Source: a virus (Duplodnaviria > Caudoviricetes). Taken from it: 64,000 nucleotides of DNA. Where the stretch lies: IMG/VR virus record IMGVR_UViG_3300037067_005519, positions 32,001-96,000 of that record; one strand, given 5' to 3'. Shown piece after piece: positions 36,491 through 54,546 of the stretch; the first letter of the stretch is position 1; the number at the start of each line of letters is the position of its first letter. The position numbers were made by a program, and so were the translations under genes. Under the pieces are notes generated by a model. The model saw only the letters and a program-made list of their open reading frames with translations. It was not told the origin of the DNA and ran no database searches.

Positions 36491-37483
36491 TTACCACCTT
36501 TGCGGACGGGCCATCTTTGCAAACATATCCTCTTCGAGAGAGCCGTCAGACTGTAGAGCGATGACCTTTTGTTCCATGTGACGGCACTTCTCATCGTTCT
36601 CTTCGCGGCTTAGATCACGGAAGACCCACCCGCTGCAAATTGCTTCCCAGCATTCGACAGCCCGGTTGAGCACCATCGTCTGATGGGTATTGCTTACACG
36701 AGCGCGCTGGTGGGCGACCCGCAGCAGGGGCTTGCCCTCGGGCATGAACTTGCTCACGATCTCGTCTATGCAGCAGACCACTTCCTCGTCGCCGACCTGC
36801 TCGCCGAGTAGCCAGCCATACATGCAAATCTGGTCGGCGTACTCCTCATTGGCTTCCTCCAAGTAGGTCTTATTGATCTCGAAGCCATGATGATAGTAGG
36901 GCACGTAATCCTTGTGCGCCGTATTGTGACTCTTGCTGGGCTTATACGGCGGCCCATAGGCGTCACGGCAGAGTCGGTAGTTCTTCGACGGGCTGGCTCC
37001 GTACTTCGAGCAGAATCCCTTGACCTTCCAGTCCAGGATCACATGGACGCCACACTCGTGAATGAAGCGGCAGTCAGGCTTGCCGAGGATCGGCACACCG
37101 TTGATCGTGCCTTCGACCTTGAACTCAAAGCGGGGCGACTCTTTTGACTTCTGCAAGAGGGTCAACAATTCCTCGAATGCGCCAGTCATCACGTAGCAGT
37201 CGTAGATGTACTTACCGGCGTCCAGAGCGAAGTCCCGATTCTGTGGCTCGACCTGGGCCTCGAAGATCGTCTGGAACTCAAACTGCGGATCGGCACCTTT
37301 GCCGAATAACCGCTCGTGCAACGCCGACTTGGCGTAGGCGTCGAAGCTCGCACCGACCGACATATAGTTCTCTTGCGGCACGCGCTGAGCACGAGTCTCA
37401 GCCAAGTGCTTGATGTAGAACTCTTCCTTGTCCTTGCCCCAGGTGGTTAGCGAGGAGTGACTAAGATACGTTGGCTTCCTCAT
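36491..37483 (-). CDS. PD-(D/E)xK exonuclease (recombination type)
   Basis: YLSHSSL; GKPD...ILDWK; Q..MY. Confidence 0.8.
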   Translation of the reverse strand: MRKPTYLSHSSLTTWGKDKEEFYIKHLAETRAQRVPQENYMSVGASFDAYAKSALHERLFGKGADPQFEFQTIFEAQVEPQNRDFALDAGKYIYDCYVMTGAFEELLTLLQKSKESPRFEFKVEGTINGVPILGKPDCRFIHECGVHVILDWKVKGFCSKYGASPSKNYRLCRDAYGPPYKPSKSHNTAHKDYVPYYHHGFEINKTYLEEANEEYADQICMYGWLLGEQVGDEEVVCCIDEIVSKFMPEGKPLLRVAHQRARVSNTHQTMVLNRAVECWEAICSGWVFRDLSREENDEKCRHMEQKVIALQSDGSLEEDMFAKMARPQRW

Positions 37484-37949
37484 GGTTCCTCTCGTCTGAA
37501 AGAATGTAGATGCCGTCCTTGTCACTGACGATATGCCAACCCACCAGTTCCGCGCGGCAGAACGAAATGATGAGGCGTAGATTCTCGATGAGCAGCGGAT
37601 GCCGCAGGGCTTCGCCCAATGGCATCCAGAACACGGTCTCGTCGGTCAAGGACTCAATCACATTGCGACCACGCAACGAGTCGTAATCGCAACGACAGAC
37701 GTAAACGATGAAGTCCGTACCCTCGATCGTGCCCATGATGCGGATTTGATCCTCTGGACACTCGATGCCAGTCTCCTCTTGAAGCTCGCGGCTTGCGGCT
37801 TTGTGGATCGTTTCTTCTGGCTCAATCTTGCCGCCAGGCAGGTTGTAGCGCCCAGCTTGCCAGGCAGGCTTCTTCTTCTCGATCAGAAGAACTTCCGGCC
37901 AATGGGCATGGGGTTGTGGGTGGGCAAAGCAAAGGACGTACTGGTTCAT
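37461..37949 (-). CDS. Nudix hydrolase
   Basis: PGGKIEPEETIHKAASRELQEETG. Confidence 0.92.
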   Translation of the reverse strand: MNQYVLCFAHPQPHAHWPEVLLIEKKKPAWQAGRYNLPGGKIEPEETIHKAASRELQEETGIECPEDQIRIMGTIEGTDFIVYVCRCDYDSLRGRNVIESLTDETVFWMPLGEALRHPLLIENLRLIISFCRAELVGWHIVSDKDGIYILSDERNHEEANVS

Positions 37950-38467
37950 GGCAGCATCTCCTCAATTGCAGAACGCAGATAATCGACGGCCATATCCTTT
38001 TCGTCACAGCCGACGTTCCAAGGGCGTGGGCAGATCAACGATGCACCACCGGCCTGACGGAACTCAAGCGCGTTGTTCGCGTTGTCGTCGATCAACAGGG
38101 TGCGGCTACAGGCGCACCACGACTTGTTCGGCGTGAGCACGAAACGACGGGCATAGCTGGGCATGTGCCTTGCGATCCAAAGCAACTTGCCTTCTGCTGA
38201 GCCAGGCCAGTTGGCGGGCTTCGAGCAGATGATGACGTTCTCCGGTCCTACGATCTCCTCACAGAGTCCCACAATAACTTCGCCATCTTCCATCCACGGA
38301 AGGTTGGCCCACCATTCGGCATCGGTGCCCGACCAGATGTCTTGATCGGACATGGGAAGCTCGCCCCGGTTGAACAGAGTCATGTCAGCCAGGTTGAGCT
38401 TCTTGGCGACGGTGTGATGTAGATCAACGATCACGCCATCCATGTCGAGAAAGATTTGTCGGTTCAC
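37946..38467 (-). CDS. HAD-family 5'(3')-nucleotidase
   Basis: FLDMDGVIVD; GKLLWI; LLIDD. Confidence 0.88.
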   Translation of the reverse strand: MNRQIFLDMDGVIVDLHHTVAKKLNLADMTLFNRGELPMSDQDIWSGTDAEWWANLPWMEDGEVIVGLCEEIVGPENVIICSKPANWPGSAEGKLLWIARHMPSYARRFVLTPNKSWCACSRTLLIDDNANNALEFRQAGGASLICPRPWNVGCDEKDMAVDYLRSAIEEMLP

Positions 38468-38636
38468 TGATTGAGTTCCTCCTGTAACTGATCGCGCTCG
38501 TTCTCCAAGTCCTTCACATCAGACTCAAGGTCAGCGACTTGATCCTGTGCTTCCTCCAATTCCTCCTGGAGATTGCACATTGGGCAATTGCATCCCTCAT
38601 AGACAACAACACAGTTCGCATGGTCTTCGCAGGTGG

Positions 38637-39722
38637 TCATTCGTTATCCTGTGCGCCCTTTCGATCGAGATAGTCGGCCGACACGCTTTTGAGAATCAGC
38701 CGGCCGCCGGTCGGAGCATAGAACTGCTCGGTCTGCGGAGTGACGACGCAACCTTCTCGACCCTTGAAGGCACACTTGATGCCTTCGGGTGCCATGACCG
38801 TCGTCGGGCCATAGGTGTGCTCTTGGATCAAGTCCTTGGTGAACGGACCTTCATAAAGGACCGGGACGAGATCAATGCCAAAGTCTTGGCACAGTTGCTT
38901 TACATCTGGCCAATCCAGGTACTTCCCGTTGACGCTGATGTCAAAAACGCGGTAGCCGTCCTTGGTGCCGTAGTCCATGTCTTGGACGCCGACGCCATAG
39001 ATTTCGCCGAAGATGATTGCCGCATTCCTCTCATCGCACAGGTGAGTGAGCAGACTGAGAATGCGTTCGTCCTCCAACGGCCGCCAGTAGATGGAAGTGT
39101 TCTCGCCTTCCGGCCTCTTCCGTCTTGTACGGTGACTGCCGGCCATGAACTCGAATTCGCCCATCTTGGGGATCAAGCCCACGCGGCTGTTTGTACCGTG
39201 AATCTTCTCGGTGATCCGAACCGGCGTCCCCTCAGCGATCGCATCGTTGAATCGCCAGTAGTGCTCGATCTCGGTGTACTTGTGGAACTGGTTGTCGTCA
39301 GGCGCAAGATCGCCATAGAAGTAGCGCACTGGCGGCTCATATTTCTGAGCGGCCCACATGCACGAGACATCGCTTCCAATCGCATGGTCATCCAGCAGGA
39401 CTGGAGCCGGGATGACAAAGCCGAAGCTAGGCTCGCCTCGCAGACGACAGGCTGCCACGCGGCACTGGCACTTGCCGGCCGGATGGTCCGCATCACCAGG
39501 GAACTCAGCGTGTTTGAGGTACTTCTGCACTCCAAGCAACTGGGCAACGTCAGGCGGCAGCAAGATGCCAGGCGGGAAGAAGACAACCCGCTGGCCCTTC
39601 TGGAATTCACCCTTGCCGGTGATGGTCGTGATGCCCTTGATGCCCGCGATCTCAAGTTTGGTCGCGTTCGGATGGGGTCTCACTTCGTCGATTGTAGTCA
39701 ACTCAACAAACACATTGGACAT
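38637..39722 (-). CDS. ATP-dependent RNA ligase, Rnl2-like DRB0094 family
   Basis: HPNATKLE N-domain; TEKIHGTN (motif I), FGEIYG, FDI, REGCVV, LKSVSADYL. Confidence 0.92.
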   Translation of the reverse strand: MSNVFVELTTIDEVRPHPNATKLEIAGIKGITTITGKGEFQKGQRVVFFPPGILLPPDVAQLLGVQKYLKHAEFPGDADHPAGKCQCRVAACRLRGEPSFGFVIPAPVLLDDHAIGSDVSCMWAAQKYEPPVRYFYGDLAPDDNQFHKYTEIEHYWRFNDAIAEGTPVRITEKIHGTNSRVGLIPKMGEFEFMAGSHRTRRKRPEGENTSIYWRPLEDERILSLLTHLCDERNAAIIFGEIYGVGVQDMDYGTKDGYRVFDISVNGKYLDWPDVKQLCQDFGIDLVPVLYEGPFTKDLIQEHTYGPTTVMAPEGIKCAFKGREGCVVTPQTEQFYAPTGGRLILKSVSADYLDRKGAQDNE

Positions 39723-51026: not shown

Positions 51027-52628
51027 TCATCGAACAAAATCCGCCATCACGGCCGGACAAGAGGCGTCAAACCCCACGACATCCAACATGCCGGCGTCGG
51101 AGGGATCAGCGATCGTGAAAGGTGTGGCCGTCATTCCTACGACGATCAATTTGGCGTCGATTCCCATGATCTGACGGTATTGTTTGAGGGCTTGAGTCGG
51201 GTGAATCTGCCCGGCCCACGTCTCGTTGTCGGTGTAGACCACGAAGGCATCCACTTCAAGACGCTGTTGTGTGGCATACATCATCGGGATGGCACAGTCA
51301 GTACCACCCATCGGTATGCGACTGATCTTCTGGACCAGTGCATCGAGCCGTTCCTTCTTCGAGATGTCAATCGGCACCAAATTGTGGGAGAATCCCATCA
51401 CATGAGTCTGCGGCTCAAGACGATGGGTGACCATCGCCATGCAGGCGGCGGCCTTGGCGGCGCTCAGGTGGGTGTTCGCCAGGAAGGACCATCCCATTGA
51501 GCCGGACACATCCAGGCTCAGCAGATGACGTTTCCCGGTCAACTCGATGGCATCGAAAGCCGAATAGAACGCTTCCTCAAGGGCATCTCTGATCTGGCCG
51601 ACAGGCTGCCAGGTAAGCGATCCCTTGATCCCGTGGCCCTGACTATAAGTTTCCGTCGCAATCAAAACGGAGAGCGGATGGACGCGAGCGCCACGCAGGC
51701 GATCGGGACTGGTCAGCACATTGCAGACCATGTTTGTGGACGCAGCCAACGGTTTCAGCAATCCGATGCTGGTCATCTTCCCCAGGTTGCGGATCAGCGC
51801 CGTGGGCGGCAAGTTGGGCAGGAGGGCTTCCCACACTCTGACGCTACCAAGCAGCGTGGTAGGGATGTGCTCCAAAGTCAGGCCATACTTCTGGATCAAG
51901 TGAGCGGCCCTTTTCTCGTCGCCAGACCCTAGAGAACTGATCTCCTCGAAGCCCTCCACGATCCACAACGGGTGTGTTGGCTCCAGGAAATCCTTGAGCA
52001 CATGCACCTTGCTGACAATCCAGCCATAAAGATCATTGCGATCGCCATCTTTCGTCTTGGGGTGACTCAGCCGCAAAACGTCACGATGGGTGTATCCAGC
52101 GCGATTGCGATACTTCGTCACCTGGTAAGCCAGCTTCTCCACCGGCTTATCGTTGTACCAGGCAGCGACGGCCTCACGCAGACCTCGGCCCCAGCCTCGC
52201 AGTTCCTTGCAGTTGGCAACGAATTGGAACAAGTGGGTCGCCGTGCGGCAGACACGAGGCAGTGCGCCCAAAGCCAGGCGGCGGCCATTGTCGTCACCTT
52301 GGCTTGCAACCAGGGCGAGGGCGAAGATCGCGGCGTCGTTCTTTGGCGCACGGCCAACTTCGCTGATACCAGCGATCGCTTCGACGGTCCTCTCGGCGTC
52401 GATCGTCGCGCAGGTCATCACGACGCCGGCATTGTTGGCCGTCAACTTCTGCTCGCCAACATAGTACGTCCCGCCATCGGAACCAAGGATCAAGAACCGC
52501 TGGAGTCTTCCCCAGGAGTCCAAGACGAAGGTGTATCCTCCGGCGTTGTTCTGCTCTTGCTTCTTGCCGGGAATCGGCCGGCTCTGCGGAGTGACTCGGG
52601 ACGAAACATGCTTAGCGAGGGTTTTCAT
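51027..52628 (-). CDS. rsr: Ro60/TROVE-domain RNA-binding protein (Rsr) with vWA domain
   Basis: NNAGGY..LQRFLILGSDGGTYY; RGWGRGLR; KYRNRAGYTHRDVLRLSHP; ALIRNLG; LDVSGSM; GGTDC; YTDNETW; LDVVGFD. Start reset to MKTLAK with GGAG RBS. Confidence 0.97.
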   Translation of the reverse strand: MKTLAKHVSSRVTPQSRPIPGKKQEQNNAGGYTFVLDSWGRLQRFLILGSDGGTYYVGEQKLTANNAGVVMTCATIDAERTVEAIAGISEVGRAPKNDAAIFALALVASQGDDNGRRLALGALPRVCRTATHLFQFVANCKELRGWGRGLREAVAAWYNDKPVEKLAYQVTKYRNRAGYTHRDVLRLSHPKTKDGDRNDLYGWIVSKVHVLKDFLEPTHPLWIVEGFEEISSLGSGDEKRAAHLIQKYGLTLEHIPTTLLGSVRVWEALLPNLPPTALIRNLGKMTSIGLLKPLAASTNMVCNVLTSPDRLRGARVHPLSVLIATETYSQGHGIKGSLTWQPVGQIRDALEEAFYSAFDAIELTGKRHLLSLDVSGSMGWSFLANTHLSAAKAAACMAMVTHRLEPQTHVMGFSHNLVPIDISKKERLDALVQKISRIPMGGTDCAIPMMYATQQRLEVDAFVVYTDNETWAGQIHPTQALKQYRQIMGIDAKLIVVGMTATPFTIADPSDAGMLDVVGFDASCPAVMADFVR

Positions 52629-52647
52629 GCTACGATCTCCAGAGAGG

Positions 52648-52705
52648 GTTAGGCTAGGAAGTGCCGTGGGTAAGTATCCGATAACCCACGAGCGTCGGCC
52701 CACAC
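52648..52705 (-). ncRNA. Y-RNA-type Ro-binding hairpin F, adjoining the rsr RBS
   Basis: GGGCCGA-CGCTCGTGG-GTTATC...ACCCACGGCACTTCCTAGCCT. Confidence 0.75.
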
Positions 52706-52716
52706 ATCACGCGAGT

Positions 52717-52780
52717 ACGTTGGGCAAGTTGTTGCCGTGGGTCTTCTATGCCTGATAACCCACGAGCTTCGGCCCAATGT
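52717..52780 (-). ncRNA. Minimal Y RNA E
   Basis: TTGGGCCGA-AGCTCGTGG-GTTATC...ACCCACGGCAACAACTTGCCCAA. Confidence 0.85.
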
Positions 52781-52923
52781 TCGGTCTGACTCGCAAACTC
52801 ACCGGCCCAACAGGACGTTCTTCAAGCGCGCCGCTACTTGCATTGCCAAGCGTCTGGCCACGTACTGCGCCTTGAGGGGCGGTTTACAGGTTCCCTTTCG
52901 GTGAGTCTTACGAATCGAATGTT
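52777..52923 (-). ncRNA. Rod-shaped RNA with central bubble (6S-like)
   Basis: GATTCGTAAGACTCACCG/CGGTGAGTTTGCGAGTC closing stem, internal bubble, long terminal stem. Confidence 0.5.
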
Positions 52924-52925
52924 TG

Positions 52926-52990
52926 CCGGGCAAGGTGTGCGATTGGTGTTGGTCAACTAATGGTGAGATAACCAATCAGCTTCGGCCCGG
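52926..52990 (-). ncRNA. Minimal Y RNA D
   Basis: CCGGGCCGA-AGCTGATTG-GTTATC...ACCAATCGCACACCTTGCCCGG. Confidence 0.85.
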
Positions 52991-52991
52991 A

Positions 52992-53123
52992 GGCACGTTG
53001 GCGGGAGTCGAACCCACGACCACAGGTTCCCTTGTTGATAACGCTTCCAGTTCGGCCCATTAGGCAAGAGACTTGAAAGCGGTTCTTTTGACCTGTGCTC
53101 TATCCATCTGAGCTACAACGTGC
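52992..53123 (-). ncRNA. tRNA-bodied Y RNA C (Ro-binding helix inserted in the anticodon loop)
   Basis: GCACGTTG/CAACGTGC acceptor, GCTC/GAGC D arm, CAGGT/ACCTG stem, GTGGG-TTCGACT-CCCGC T arm; insert CGCTTTCAAGTCTCTTGCC-TAAT-GGGCCGAACTGGAAGCGTTATC. Confidence 0.85.
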
Positions 53124-53130
53124 ATAACAG

Positions 53131-53254
53131 CGGACACCGGCAGGACTCGAACCTGCGCCTCTCACTTAACAGGTGATAACGCTGACCCTTCGGCCCTTAC
53201 AAGGCAACGGTGGGTAAGCGGTTTTAGCGCTCTGCCAACTGAGCTACGGCATCC
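53131..53254 (-). ncRNA. tRNA-Asn-bodied Y RNA B (Ro-binding helix inserted between D arm and anticodon arm)
   Basis: GGATGCCG/CGGTGTCC acceptor, D arm, insert, TCAC-CTGTTAA-GTGA anticodon arm, GCAGG-TTCGAGT-CCTGC T arm. Confidence 0.85.
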
Positions 53255-53261
53255 ATACAAG

Positions 53262-53321
53262 GAGGACAAGGTGCGCGGACGGGGTTCATCATTGCAGGAT
53301 AACCCGCCCACATCGGCCCTC
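53262..53321 (-). ncRNA. Minimal Y RNA A (first unit of the array)
   Basis: GAGGGCCGA-TGTGGGCGG-GTTATC...CCGTCCGCGCACCTTGTCCTC. Confidence 0.85.
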
Positions 53322-53355
53322 TACTAAGACGACGTAAATTAAACCGACATTTCCC
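53319..53355 (-). promoter_or_regulatory. Putative ECF-type promoter for the Y RNA array and rsr
   Basis: GGAAAT-N17-CGTCTTAG; near-identical copy at 30284; implied +1 falls at the 5' end of unit A. Confidence 0.65.
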
Positions 53356-54154
53356 CAACTTGACGCCGTTTTTCTCGCTCGATGTCTTGATCGAACTCGT
53401 CATCACTGATATATCCGGCAATCCAGGCACCAAAGCGGGTCGCCAGGCCGCTTAATCCTGCTTGCATCAACTGGCCGATGCGAGTATTGATCTCCTCCTT
53501 GCCCCGTCGATACCGAAACTTGCGGCGGAACCGAGGGTTGACATTGAGCTTCCTCTTGCGACTGCCTCGTGCGGCGATCAGTTCCTCGGCTGCCTGAATC
53601 TGTTCCTCTGGCGGAAGGTTCACGAGCACATCCACGTCAAGAAGAGTCAGCATCTTGGCCGCCACCTTATCGCGGAGTTCCTCGGGAAGCTCCATGATCC
53701 TTAGACGCGAATGGACCCACCGTGTATCACGGCTCATCTCCTTGGCGATCGTCCGCAGAGAACTGCCAGCAGGGAACCTCTTGGCGATCGCTTGAGCTTG
53801 CTCCAAGGGGTTTAGGTCTTCCCGCTCCAAATTCTCCGTTAAGTTAAGAATCTCGGCTGCTCGATCATTGAGGCCCTGACGGATGTTCGCCGGTATATGG
53901 GTCCAATTCAGAAACGTCTTCACGGCAGCCAGCCGACGAAAACCAGCGACCAAACGATACGACTCCTTGAACCCCACCTGGCTGTCTTCACGCTGCTGTA
54001 AGATCACTGGAATCTCAAGGCCAGTCTGAGCAATGTTGTCCGCCAAACCCTTGACCGACTGGAAGGTGAACGCATTCCGGCAGTTGAAATCAGGATCAAC
54101 CCAGATGTCATTCAGCGGAACATCAAACACATCATATCGAGCCAACCGTTCCAT
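53339..54154 (-). CDS. ParB/Srx-family protein
   Basis: LVAGFRRLAA, LTENLEREDLNPLEQA, HTH; start reset to MERLAR (longer ORF runs through tRNA-Asn). Confidence 0.9.
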   Translation of the reverse strand: MERLARYDVFDVPLNDIWVDPDFNCRNAFTFQSVKGLADNIAQTGLEIPVILQQREDSQVGFKESYRLVAGFRRLAAVKTFLNWTHIPANIRQGLNDRAAEILNLTENLEREDLNPLEQAQAIAKRFPAGSSLRTIAKEMSRDTRWVHSRLRIMELPEELRDKVAAKMLTLLDVDVLVNLPPEEQIQAAEELIAARGSRKRKLNVNPRFRRKFRYRRGKEEINTRIGQLMQAGLSGLATRFGAWIAGYISDDEFDQDIEREKRRQVGEMSV

Positions 54155-54240
54155 ACTGACCTCTGGCGACAAAAAAGCGTCAGAAGGGAGGGTGCCTCCA
54201 TCACGGCTACAGCCGCAGACTCCACCCGTTCCGACGCTAG

Positions 54241-54313
54241 CTGCATCGCCTGGACTCGAACCAGGGACATCCGCATTAACAGTGCGGCGCACTACCAACT
54301 GTGCTACGATGCA
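54241..54313 (-). tRNA. tRNA-Asn(GTT)
   Basis: TGCATCG/CGATGCA; CCGCA-CTGTTAA-TGCGG; CCTGG-TTCGAGT-CCAGG. Confidence 0.93.
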
Positions 54314-54324
54314 ATTGTCCATTG

Positions 54325-54546
54325 TCAAAATACTGGGAATACGTTGACGCCAGGCGTACCCATGATACGCTCGACGATAGGCATGAATGATATGTCTCTG
54401 CCAACGAAATCGAATTGAATCATCCCTGCCTCATCTGGATCAGGCATTGGAAAACCTTCAAGCATGGCAAGAAGATCATCGCGGTTCTGCTCCGCAATGT
54501 CTTTGCTCATCGAAAAGGTTAGACGTTTTGGCCCTGGAAGTTCCAT
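54325..54546 (-). CDS. Hypothetical protein
   Basis: GAGG RBS. Confidence 0.55.
   Translation of the reverse strand: MELPGPKRLTFSMSKDIAEQNRDDLLAMLEGFPMPDPDEAGMIQFDFVGRDISFMPIVERIMGTPGVNVFPVF

What the first reader, a model, noticed from the sequence alone, without database searches (positions are those of the whole stretch)
51027..53355. Phage Ro60 gene led by a six-unit Y RNA array
Seen: GATAAC-N9-TCGGCCC occurs six times on the plus strand, at 52680, 52754, 52967, 53037, 53175 and 53298. On the coding strand this is GGGCCGA-N9-GUUAUC, always with exactly 9 nt. The N9 differs between units (E and F by only one base), and each unit has its own complementary strand ending in (C)UUGCC/CUUGUC/CUAGCC, so the helix co-varies while the bulged-C core is fixed. 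The array abuts a full-length TROVE-vWA gene. Known: Ro60/Rsr binds a bulged-C helix in Y RNAs. From memory, human Y1 starts GGCUGGUCCGA-AGGUAGUGA-GUUAUC and ends CACUUGAC, the same motif and N9 spacing. Described bacterial and phage rsr loci usually carry one or two Y RNAs. Inference: this is a polycistronic cassette of diversified Y RNAs of three architectures that could give one Ro60 several adaptors or decoys during infection. I do not know of a description of such an array.
Basis: partly seen in the sequence, partly recalled or inferred. Interest (0 to 1): 0.95.

Follow-up and report, generated by a model that had tools for sequence, protein, structure and literature searches.

The report
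Phage Ro60 gene with six Y-RNAs
A 149-kb phage carries a canonical Ro60 (Rsr) gene preceded by six small-RNA modules with the Ro60-binding signature, two of them built into tRNA bodies. Such arrays turn out to be common beside Ro60 genes in phages and bacteria, yet I found no paper that describes them.

Summary
GGGCCGA-N9-GUUAUC occurs six times on the minus strand at the stated places, with 0 expected by chance, and nowhere else in the complete 148.65-kb phage genome. All six lie between a parB-like gene and a full-length Ro60/Rsr gene (51027-52628).

Four units (F, C, B, A) are about 60-nt hairpins. Each has a bulged-C lower stem and a co-varying upper stem, like YrlB or nematode stem-bulge RNAs. 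Two units (E, D) are tRNA-shaped, with open acceptor stems and the Ro helix inside the anticodon arm. This is the reverse of YrlA topology. Unit E keeps a complete Asn (GUU) anticodon loop.

The array is not unique. Across 80 phage loci found through the TROVE gene, 110 motifs lie on the rsr strand and 0 on the other. Of 61 phage loci with full flanks, 17 have at least 3 units, and one locus has 7. Of 60 bacterial loci, 28 have at least 3 units, with a maximum of 8. About 35 tRNA chimeras recur, with strong covariation.

The published record I could read describes at most two Y-like RNAs per phage, and YrlA with a closed acceptor stem. This scan has noted related systems on other DNA. Binding, transcription and function remain untested.

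Verdict: real; a new variant of a known kind.

The parts
51027..52628 (-). rsr: Ro60/Rsr orthologue, 533 aa (TROVE + vWA_Ro60, MIDAS DxSxS present)
   Evidence: Pfam. PDB 9nen, 1yvp and 2nvo at E about 1e-122. D373, S375 and S377 are invariant in a 25-protein alignment.
52637..52640 (-). GGAG ribosome-binding site, 8 nt before ATG 52628
   Evidence: Read directly from the sequence.
52649..52705 (-). Unit A: hairpin Y-like RNA, a near-duplicate of B with a weakened lower stem (CUAGCC). It ends about 8 nt before the RBS.
   Evidence: Model R1 gives 38.2 bits, E 1.5e-7 (training member). Fold. Conserved in L128.
52717..52781 (-). Unit B: hairpin Y-like RNA
   Evidence: Rfam sbRNA model RF01656 gives 37.0 bits (gathering score 38), E 3e-5. 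R1 gives 56.7 bits. Fold z-score -3.2.
52782..52925 (-). Gap RNA: structured 144-nt element with an 18-bp closing stem and no intact Ro motif. Function unknown.
   Evidence: Fold -52.8 kcal/mol, z-score -2.4. It shares AAGGGAACCUGU with the unit D junction. L128 has a different rod plus a degenerate B unit at this position.
52926..52990 (-). Unit C: hairpin Y-like RNA, starting 1 nt after the 3' end of D
   Evidence: R1 gives 54.9 bits. RF01656 gives 20.1 bits. Conserved in L128 and L051/L133.
52992..53123 (-). Unit D: type I tRNA-Y chimera. It has an open acceptor stem, D and T arms, and an intact 5-bp anticodon stem (CAGGU/ACCUG) that encloses the strand-swapped Ro helix. It has no anticodon loop.
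   Evidence: Sequence parse. Eleven relatives have 8 different co-varying stems and a conserved GGGA junction. Its own partner pairs at -10.4 kcal/mol, against -3.0 to -7.7 for other units' partners.
53131..53254 (-). Unit E: type II tRNA-Y chimera. It is a tRNA-Asn(GUU)-like body whose anticodon stem is split between nt 28 and 29 by a 50-nt Ro-binding arm.
   Evidence: Parse. Covariation on A4 is 95.4% paired, against 68.6% in shuffles. ARAGORN calls a 72-nt tRNA-Asn after the uniform excision. The Rfam tRNA model gives a partial 26-bit hit.
53262..53321 (-). Unit F: hairpin Y-like RNA with a 7-nt apical loop (CUGCAAU). It starts 17 nt after the stop codon of the parB-like gene.
   Evidence: R1 gives 61.7 bits. 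RF01656 gives 22.4 bits. Fold z-score -2.3. Conserved in L128 with partly compensatory changes.
53339..54200 (-). Upstream parB-like gene on the same strand (context). No promoter or terminator pattern lies between it and the array.
   Evidence: Pfam HTH_ParB and ParB_N. Promoter and terminator scan. The true start lies downstream of the tRNA-Asn that the ORF overlaps.

Best explanation
The 0.7-kb stretch between the parB-like gene and rsr encodes six RNA modules. Each carries the binding site for the phage's own Ro60/Rsr ring. That site is a lower helix GGGC(C)GA / UUGCCC with one bulged C, an unpaired stretch on the 3' strand, a co-varying upper helix, and the GGUUAUC element.

Four units (F, C, B, A) are free-standing hairpins of about 60 nt, the YrlB/Yrn2/sbRNA type. 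Two units (E, D) are full tRNA bodies with normal 5'/3' termini in the acceptor stem. In these the Ro helix, capped by a 4-6-nt loop, sits in the anticodon arm. E keeps an Asn anticodon loop and D has none.

Inferred mechanism:
- The array is co-transcribed with rsr.
- RNase P and RNase Z (or 3' trimming) cut at the two tRNA bodies. F ends 7 nt before E, E and D are 7 nt apart, and D ends 1 nt before C.
- Rsr binding protects the released RNAs.
- The variable parts (apical loops, tRNA bodies) act as adaptors or gates. They couple one Rsr ring to different partners, such as host PNPase or tRNA-recognising enzymes, during infection.

Shown here: the anatomy, the covariation, the strict co-orientation with rsr, and the recurrence in many genomes. 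Inferred: transcription, processing, binding and the biological role.
For: - Six exact motifs, 0 expected by chance, unique in the genome.
- A canonical Ro60 lies next door.
- The nematode Y-homologue model RF01656 hits B, F and C. It exceeds its gathering score on related bacterial units.
- Own partner against other partners: -13.1 vs -7.3 kcal/mol in the window, and -12.3 vs -5.5 in 43 units whose N9 differ at 5.3 of 9 positions.
- Motif within +-2 kb of rsr: 136 on the rsr strand and 0 opposite; 110 and 0 in loci found through the TROVE gene; 206 and 11 in bacteria.
- Model R1: 113 of 113 hits at E <= 0.001 lie on the rsr strand in 83 phage loci. 82.7% of cells are paired, against 64.8% shuffled and about 40% slid, and 18 of 23 pairs change on both sides.
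- Chimeras: 95.4% paired against 68.6% shuffled. The 27-28/42-43 helix, which was not used for selection, is 97% paired across the insert. U33 is invariant.
- 17 of 18 chimeras become 71-75-nt tRNAs after one uniform excision.
- The Rfam tRNA model reads relatives end to end with their inserts.
- Array order is conserved in L128, whose Rsr is 80% identical.
- No promoter or terminator pattern inside the block.
- Precedents: phiLo phiRo60 binds two upstream Y-like RNAs and host PNPase (PMC12135203). D. radiodurans makes a Yrn2-tRNAAsp-Yrn1 polycistronic precursor (PMC4201824).
Against:
- Rfam's vertebrate Y_RNA model gives no hit at E <= 1, and no window unit reaches any Rfam gathering score.
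- The four hairpins were in R1's training set, so their scores are by construction.
- The acceptor, D and T stems of the chimeras were pre-selected for pairing by my parser.
- C, B and A have no obvious processing signal and could stay in the rsr leader.
- The host is unknown, so the promoter scan (sigma-70 consensus) may simply not apply.
Confidence: 0.75

Rival explanations
1. The units, or at least the proximal C, B and A, are not separate small RNAs. They are Rsr-binding sites in the 5' leader of the rsr mRNA, through which excess Rsr represses or stabilises its own message (autoregulation).
For: - No promoter or terminator pattern separates the array from rsr.
- Unit A ends about 8 nt before the GGAG RBS.
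- In many loci the nearest unit starts 70-170 nt before the start codon.
- No tRNA-type processing signal flanks B and A.
Against: - In several phage and bacterial loci the arrays lie downstream of rsr.
- Six diversified units are more than an operator would need.
- The published phage and bacterial Y RNAs that sit upstream of rsr accumulate as free RNAs or bind as free RNAs (PMC4201824, PMC12135203).
- This reading is compatible with the main explanation for unit A only.
Confidence: 0.12
2. Units E and its relatives are working tRNAs (E would be tRNA-Asn). The Ro arm is either tolerated on the ribosome or removed like an intron, so the array is partly a tRNA operon under Rsr control.
For: - E has a complete cloverleaf with U33 and A37 and canonical lengths once the arm is removed.
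- Anticodons among relatives span many amino acids.
- Rsr genes often sit in tRNA clusters.
Against: - No splicing system for a 28/29 insert is known in bacteria.
- A 50-nt helix projecting from the anticodon stem should clash with the ribosome (established structural knowledge; not tested here).
- E's discriminator is C, whereas the phage's own tRNA-Asn 1 kb away has G73.
- Type I units such as D have no anticodon loop at all.
- The insert carries the conserved Ro-binding signature rather than intron features.
Confidence: 0.08
3. The six motifs are copies of a selfish or structural DNA repeat (REP- or MITE-like, or a protein-binding DNA site for the neighbouring ParB-like protein) and have no RNA function.
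For: The motif is a short, repeated, conserved element in an intergenic region next to a parB-like gene.
Against: - The strand bias relative to rsr is absolute: 110 to 0, 136 to 0 and 113 to 0.
- Compensatory changes preserve RNA helices, including G-U pairs.
- The repeat occurs nowhere else in the genome.
- The association is with rsr and not with parB across unrelated genomes.
Confidence: 0.02

Closest known systems
Bacterial and phage hairpin Y RNAs: S. Typhimurium and M. smegmatis YrlB, D. radiodurans Yrn2, Thermus phage phiLo Yrl1/Yrl2 (PMC4201824, PMC12135203)
   Same: - Encoded next to rsr on the same strand.
- A long hairpin whose lower stem carries the GNCGAA motif.
- A small, often pyrimidine-rich apical loop.
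- phiLo Yrl1 and Yrl2 lie upstream of the gene and bind phiRo60 and host PNPase in vitro.
   Different: - There are four such hairpins in one array here (six Ro modules in all), against one or two described.
- The sequence signature here (GGGCCGA-N9-GGUUAUC ... CUUGCCC) is much closer to metazoan Y/sbRNAs.
- The protein here is canonical Ro60 (E about 1e-122 to Xenopus Ro60), whereas phiRo60 is distant (E 4e-10).
YrlA (Rfam RF02553; Chen et al. 2014, PMC4201824; Wang et al. 2018, bioRxiv 10.1101/312249)
   Same: - A Ro-binding helix joined to a tRNA-like module with canonical D and T arms.
- Encoded beside rsr.
- Unit D, like YrlA, has the anticodon stem running into the Ro helix and no anticodon loop.
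   Different: - YrlA has its termini in the Ro stem, the order T arm - closed acceptor hairpin - D arm, and no anticodon loop.
- E and D have open acceptor stems (native tRNA order D ... T) and a Ro helix capped by a loop with its strands swapped. E also keeps a full anticodon loop.
- The RF02553 hit in the window (28 bits; gathering score 69) joins the T arm of E to the D arm of D. Chen et al. warn of exactly this tandem-tRNA artefact.
Metazoan Y RNAs and nematode stem-bulge RNAs (Rfam RF01656; Kowalski and Krude 2015, PMC4726728)
   Same: - A lower stem with a single bulged C and an unpaired stretch on the opposite strand.
- The conserved UUAUC motif above the upper stem.
- C. elegans has about 18 sbRNA genes, so multi-copy families exist.
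- RF01656 scores 37.0 on unit B and 39-41 bits on related bacterial units (gathering score 38).
   Different: - These are prokaryotic-virus genes in one operon-like array with the protein gene.
- No Pol III context and no 3' oligo-U.
- Homology as opposed to convergence is not established.
- Vertebrate Y_RNA (RF00019) gives no hit.
D. radiodurans Yrn2-tRNAAsp-Yrn1 polycistronic precursor (PMC4201824)
   Same: Y RNAs and a tRNA are transcribed as one precursor upstream of rsr, so tRNA processing can define Y RNA ends.
   Different: There the tRNA is an ordinary separate tRNA. Here the tRNA bodies themselves carry the Ro-binding helix.
Coliphage Bas63 gp130 (Ro60-like) next to a tRNA run (PhageMaP, PMC11482910)
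   Same: A phage Ro60-like gene lies beside tRNA-like genes. The authors speculate that some annotated tRNAs are Y RNAs. Deleting gp130 sensitises the phage to the Ppl defence system.
   Different: No RNA partners were defined there. That protein is similar only in structure. No defence link has been tested for the present phage.

Membership tests
Ro60-binding Y RNA (functional class) | Helix with a conserved single bulged C and the GNCGAA motif on the 5' strand, pairing with a CUUG(N)CC 3' strand | tested here: met
   All six units carry it. The lower stem is 95.6% paired in 34 and in 104 sequences, with G-C to A-U and C-G to U-A exchanges in distant members.
Ro60-binding Y RNA (functional class) | Unpaired nucleotides on the strand opposite the bulged C, between the lower and upper stems | tested here: met
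   The R1 consensus has 5 unpaired 3'-strand positions before CUUGCCC. Examples are CAC, CAACAA and CACAC in units F, B and C.
Ro60-binding Y RNA (functional class) | Encoded beside, and co-oriented with, a Ro60/Rsr gene | tested here: met
   Strand counts are 110 to 0, 136 to 0 and 113 to 0 in relatives.
Ro60-binding Y RNA (functional class) | Physical binding to Ro60 and Ro60-dependent accumulation | not testable with these tools
   This needs EMSA, RIP and Northern blots.
Vertebrate Y_RNA (Rfam RF00019) / nematode sbRNA (RF01656) | Score at or above the family's gathering threshold | tested here: not met
   RF00019 gives no hit at E <= 1. RF01656 gives 37.0, 22.4 and 20.1 bits against a gathering score of 38, with nothing at the gathering score in the window. 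Related bacterial units do exceed it, at 39.4-41.5 bits.
YrlA (Rfam RF02553) | Termini in the Ro stem; order T arm - closed acceptor hairpin - D arm | tested here: not met
   E and D have the order D arm ... Ro helix ... T arm, with paired 5'/3' acceptor strands. The E 5' strand against the D 3' strand gives -4.4 kcal/mol, against -12.5 for its own partner.
YrlA (Rfam RF02553) | Score at or above the gathering threshold (69 bits) | tested here: not met
   The hit is 28.3 bits and partial (model positions 30-81), and it spans two units. A genuine YrlA-topology RNA in Gordonia phage Cashline also scores only 42 bits, so this threshold is strict.
YrlA (Rfam RF02553) | tRNA-like D and T arms attached to a Ro-binding helix | tested here: met
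   GUAGCUCAGNUGG...AGAGC and GGUUCGAnUCC are present in E and D.
tRNA (RF00005) | Cloverleaf: 7-bp acceptor stem, 4-bp D stem, 5-bp anticodon stem, 5-bp T stem, with covariation | tested here: met
   A4 has 21 pairs and 95.4% paired, and 19 pairs change on both sides. The acceptor, D and T stems were pre-selected for pairing; the anticodon stem was not. For type I stems.
tRNA (RF00005) | Full-length model match at the gathering score | tested here: inconclusive
   Window E gets only 26 bits and a partial match, and D gets nothing. Relatives are read over model positions 1-71 across 98-156 nt at 30-49 bits.
tRNA (RF00005) | 7-nt anticodon loop with U33 and purine 37 | tested here: met
   E has CUGUUAA. 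U33 is invariant and A37 is at least 90% across 18 type II chimeras. Unit D (type I) has no such loop.
tRNA (RF00005) | Aminoacylation, CCA end, use in translation | not testable with these tools
   No CCA is encoded. E's discriminator is C, against G in the phage's tRNA-Asn.
Ro60/Rsr protein | TROVE HEAT-repeat ring plus a vWA domain with the MIDAS motif | tested here: met
   PF05731 and PF25045. Full-length matches to 9nen, 1yvp and 2nvo. The DxSxS residues D373, S375 and S377 are invariant.

The most novel reading that the evidence does not exclude
Phage and bacterial rsr loci encode a widespread, undescribed class of 'handled tRNAs'. These are complete tRNA bodies in native topology that carry a Ro60-binding arm inserted at position 28/29, with canonical anticodon loops of many specificities. 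They sit beside hairpin Y RNAs in arrays punctuated by tRNA processing. In this reading Rsr is loaded with anticodon-displaying tRNA look-alikes. They would act either as decoys or traps for anticodon-targeting host nucleases and other tRNA-directed defences, or as guides that bring tRNA-handling enzymes to the Rsr/PNPase machine. The tandem E-D arrangement would also be the long-postulated dimeric-tRNA ancestor state of circularly permuted YrlA.
Probability: 0.25. Interest if true: 0.85.

Novelty: new variant of a known kind. Interest (0 to 1): 0.62.

Why it matters
Ro60 and its Y RNAs are conserved from bacteria to humans, where Ro60 is a lupus and Sjogren autoantigen. What the variable modules of Y RNAs recruit, and why bacterial Y RNAs mimic tRNA, are still open questions.

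This locus and its many relatives show three things:
- One Rsr gene is commonly served by a whole array of diversified Ro-binding RNAs, up to 7-8.
- Besides permuted YrlA there is an unpermuted form. It is a real tRNA body, often with an intact anticodon loop of defined specificity, carrying a Ro-binding arm.
- Prokaryotic and phage units keep the GGGCCGA...UUAUC...CUUGCCC signature of metazoan Y and stem-bulge RNAs.

This yields concrete, testable reagents: defined RNAs with defined anticodons next to a canonical Ro60. They can be used to ask which tRNA-binding factors Rsr is tethered to, whether phages use this against tRNA-directed defence, and how YrlA arose from tandem tRNAs.

It also has a practical side. 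These genes are unannotated in phage and bacterial records, or would be mis-called, and current Rfam thresholds miss them.

Tried and rejected
- The YrlA reading of E-D (5' strand of E pairing with the 3' strand before D). Rejected: the pairing is -4.4 against -12.5 kcal/mol, the acceptor strands pair in native order, and single chimeras flanked by hairpins exist in other phages.
- Brute-force excision of inserts followed by ARAGORN. It allows too many forking paths. I replaced it with one uniform column rule. Even there the shifted controls still gave 11-17 calls out of 18, so ARAGORN is lenient and I rely mainly on covariation.
- MAFFT plus RNAalifold on the hairpins recovered only the lower stem, because bulges shift the register. 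I used own-versus-other duplex energies and a covariance model instead.
- Rfam at gathering thresholds found no YrlA in 40 loci. A true YrlA-topology RNA scores only 42 bits, so this is not evidence of absence.
- My heuristic 'Y' class is unreliable, because tandem chimeras are mis-called. I did not use it.
- The sigma-70 promoter and terminator scan found nothing in the block. This is weak evidence, since the host is unknown.
- RtcB is absent from the genome.
- The 2020 Annual Review (PMC10870794), the 2019 review (PMC6542706) and the Chen 2014 supplementary tables are not held. I therefore could not check the largest copy number they report per locus.
- The idea that all hairpin apices are bare anticodon arms holds for only about one fifth of them.
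Full report
**Observation.** The pattern GATAAC-N9-TCGGCCC occurs six times on the + strand at exactly the reported positions. None appeared in 100 dinucleotide-preserving shuffles. The window is bases 32001-96000 of a complete 148,650-bp IMG/VR phage genome with direct terminal repeats, and the motif occurs nowhere else in it.

Everything relevant is on the minus strand. The order is:
- tRNA-Asn (54313-54241)
- a parB-like gene, with its stop at 53339
- the array (53321-52649)
- GGAG (52640-52637) and ATG 52628
- a 533-aa TROVE + vWA_Ro60 protein ending at 51027

The protein is a canonical Ro60. It matches human and Xenopus Ro60 and D. radiodurans Rsr over its full length at E about 1e-122. 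The only structurally studied phage Ro60 (phiLo) is a distant relative, at E 4e-10. The MIDAS residues are invariant in a 25-protein alignment.

**Anatomy.** I name the units 5' to 3' on the RNA strand.
- F (53321-53262), C (52990-52926), B (52781-52717) and A (52705-52649) are hairpins of about 60 nt. Each has a lower stem GGGC(C)GA/UUGCCC with one bulged C, 3-6 unpaired nucleotides on the 3' strand, an upper stem made by N9 and its complement, and an apical stem whose 5' strand is UUAUC.
- E (53254-53131) and D (53123-52992) are different. Each begins with an acceptor strand and a canonical D arm (GUAGCUCAG.UGG..AGAGC). Each ends with a canonical T arm (GGUUCGAnUCC) and the complementary acceptor strand. 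The Ro helix lies inside with its strands swapped: the ...UUGCC strand, then a 4-6-nt loop, then GGGCCGA-N9-GUUAUC.
- Spacing is tight. F ends 7 nt before E, 7 nt separate E from D, and 1 nt separates D from C.
- A 144-nt structured element with no intact Ro motif lies between C and B.

**Is it more than a repeat?** Each 5' strand pairs best with its own partner. The mean is -13.1 kcal/mol, against -7.3 for the partners of other units. A and B are near-duplicates and share a partner sequence.

Rfam's model of nematode stem-bulge RNAs (RF01656) hits B at 37.0 bits (gathering score 38) and F and C more weakly. CeN72 is an sbRNA, and sbRNAs are Y-RNA homologues that share the bulged-C helix and the UUAUC motif (PMC4726728). 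The vertebrate Y_RNA model gives no hit. The YrlA model gives only a 28-bit partial hit that joins the T arm of E to the D arm of D. Chen et al. 2014 warn of exactly this tandem-tRNA artefact.

**Relatives.**
- *Motif scan.* A scan of IMG/VR with GGGCCGAA-N8-GTTATC returned at least 119 contigs. Thirty-nine of the fetched loci carry a TROVE gene, and 29 of those carry 2-6 strict motifs. Allowing one mismatch, 136 motifs lie on the rsr strand within 2 kb of the gene and none on the other strand.
- *Phage census.* To remove ascertainment bias I fetched 80 phage loci through the protein alone, out of at least 575 in the collection. There, 110 motifs lie on the rsr strand and 0 on the opposite strand. 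Among 61 loci with full flanks, the counts of units per locus are: 26 loci with 0, 13 with 1, 5 with 2, 7 with 3, 8 with 4 and 2 with 5. One locus with a partial flank has 7.
- *Bacterial census.* The same census on 80 bacterial and archaeal loci gave 206 motifs on the rsr strand and 11 opposite. Twenty-eight of 60 full-flank loci hold at least 3 units, and the maximum is 8.
- *Covariance model.* A model built from 34 hairpins (R1) finds only the four hairpins in the 64-kb window. In 83 phage loci it finds 113 hits at E <= 0.001, all on the rsr strand. On that alignment 82.7% of cells pair, against 64.8% in shuffles and about 40% when partners are slid. Changes on both sides occur in 18 of 23 pairs, including lower-stem pairs that never vary inside the window. 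This alignment is fitted to the model, which favours the structure. The independent own-versus-other test on 43 units points the same way: -12.3 against -5.5 kcal/mol, with N9 differing at 5.3 of 9 positions.
- *Closest relative.* L128 (Rsr 80% identical) keeps the order F, E, D, an extra tRNA-like unit, C, a rod, B, A. Three of its units carry point variants of the motif.

The six-unit array is therefore real and under selection. It is at the high end of a common pattern and is not a singular oddity.

**The tRNA chimeras.** A parser that asks only for a T arm, a pairing acceptor stem and a D arm found about 35 distinct chimeras in phage and bacterial rsr loci. All have native tRNA order. They fall into two types.
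- *Type II (window unit E, 18 aligned).* The 5-bp anticodon stem is split between nt 28 and 29 by a 48-55-nt Ro arm. The final C of GUUAUC is nt 29, and a 7-nt loop follows. On alignment A4 the cloverleaf is 95.4% paired, against 68.6% shuffled and about 40% slid, and 19 of 21 pairs change on both sides. The acceptor, D and T stems were pre-selected for pairing. The anticodon stem was not, and its 27-28/42-43 pairs, which bridge the insert, are 97% paired (CG, UA, GC, AU). U33 is invariant and A37 nearly so. Deleting the same alignment columns from every sequence turns 17 of 18 into full-span 71-75-nt tRNAs for ARAGORN. Their anticodons are Asn, Ile, Arg, Cys, Ser, Tyr, Leu, Met, Lys and others, and E becomes tRNA-Asn(GUU). 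Shifted deletions also gave many calls, so this test is lenient.
- *Type I (window unit D, 11 members).* These keep an intact 27-31/39-43 stem that encloses the whole Ro helix. They show eight different co-varying stem sequences, a conserved GGGA before nt 39, and no anticodon loop.

Rfam's tRNA model, at its curated threshold, reads many relatives from model position 1 to 71 across 98-156 nt. One example is in the complete Desulfonema magnum genome.

**Comparison with the literature.**
- Chen et al. 2014 (PMC4201824) reported 355 YrlA candidates in 254 bacteria and 22 phages, at least two Y RNAs in each characterised species, and a Yrn2-tRNAAsp-Yrn1 precursor in D. radiodurans.
- Wang et al. 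2018 (bioRxiv 10.1101/312249) state that the YrlA acceptor stem is a closed loop and that YrlA lacks the anticodon loop. They speculate that YrlA arose from a dimeric pre-tRNA. Units E and D differ on the first point and E on both. The E-D tandem has the layout of that postulated ancestor, but here the strands pair within units, not between them.
- The 2025 study of Thermus phage phiLo identified two Y-like hairpins upstream of the gene. It showed binding to phiRo60 and ternary complexes with host PNPase (PMC12135203).
- PhageMaP found that the Ro60-like gp130 of coliphage Bas63 counters the Ppl defence system. Its authors guessed that neighbouring annotated tRNAs might be Y RNAs (PMC11482910).
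- I found no paper describing multi-unit arrays or unpermuted tRNA-Y chimeras. However, two reviews and the Chen supplementary tables are not held, so this negative is limited.
- Earlier AI notes of this scan report related Ro60 and tRNA-shaped RNA systems on other DNA. I treated them as leads only.

**Mechanism.**
- *Shown:* six modules with the Ro-binding signature, co-oriented with and adjacent to a canonical rsr; helices maintained by compensatory change; tRNA bodies with native termini; a conserved array layout.
- *Inferred:* co-transcription with rsr, since no promoter or terminator patterns were found, although the host is unknown; release of the units by RNase P and RNase Z at E and D, which would also define the 3' end of F and the 5' end of C; protection by Rsr; and use of the variable modules as adaptors or gates.
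- *Context:* the phage has an Rnl2-type RNA ligase, a NUDIX hydrolase and a nucleotidase about 12 kb away and no RtcB. This is compatible with an RNA-repair or RNA-decay role but proves nothing.

Whether the anticodon-bearing chimeras are decoys, docking adaptors or working tRNAs cannot be settled in silico.

**Verdict.** This is a new variant of a known kind (Rsr with Y RNAs). Its interest lies less in the number six than in the widespread, apparently undescribed array organisation and the native-topology tRNA-Y chimeras.

Noticed in passing
window 52782-52925 (-): A 144-nt structured RNA lies between units C and B. It has an 18-bp closing stem, the type I junction 12-mer AAGGGAACCUGU and a degenerate GGGCCGG-N9 motif, but no UUGCC partner. 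The closest relative has an unrelated ~95-nt rod plus a degenerate B unit at the same place.
   Followed up: partly
The terminator scan found no intrinsic terminator there. I did not analyse it further.
   Followed up: no
window 37461-39722 (-): A cluster of an Rnl2-family RNA ligase (PF09414, with an OB-fold N-terminal domain), an NT5C-type nucleotidase and a NUDIX hydrolase. The genome has no RtcB. These could be RNA-repair partners of the Rsr system.
   Followed up: partly
L217, L278, L213 (bacterial MAG contigs): In these contigs rsr is embedded in very large tRNA arrays, with about 25, about 20 and 8 tRNA-model hits within 6.6 kb. They may be prophage or phage contigs binned into MAGs, or genuine chromosomal tRNA-array islands.
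   Followed up: no
L236:2359-2430, L222:1914-1982, L278:2360-2429: Bacterial hairpin units beside rsr (Verrucomicrobiota and Limnoglobus roseus) exceed the gathering score of Rfam's nematode sbRNA family RF01656, at 39-41.5 bits against 38. An automatic Rfam annotation would label them as nematode sRNAs.
   Followed up: partly
L129:2322-2449 (Gordonia phage Cashline, MW534378.1), and the unannotated gaps upstream of Ro-like genes in L130-L132: Cultured actinophages have 350-650-nt unannotated gaps before their Ro-like genes. Cashline holds a YrlA-topology RNA (42 bits, below the gathering score of 69) with GGGCCGG...GGUUACC, plus a further tRNA/Y-like unit upstream. None of these is annotated in GenBank.
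   Followed up: partly
hairpin units in A1 and A5 (e.g. window F 53262-53321; L034:8915-8975; L111:9893-9954): In 23 of 111 hairpin units the apex is a 5-bp stem plus a 7-nt loop with an anticodon-loop pattern (Y32 in 22/23, U33 in 19/23, A37 in 16/23). Two of them have CUGUUAA, identical to the Asn loop of unit E.
   Followed up: yes
window 53339-54328 (-) and 54241-54313 (-): The mechanical ORF of the parB-like gene overlaps tRNA-Asn(GUU) at its 5' end, so the real start must lie downstream of about 54240. This tRNA-Asn shares its D-loop, anticodon-loop and T-loop sequences with chimera E.
   Followed up: partly
It carries none of the six Ro motifs, and I did not examine it.
   Followed up: no
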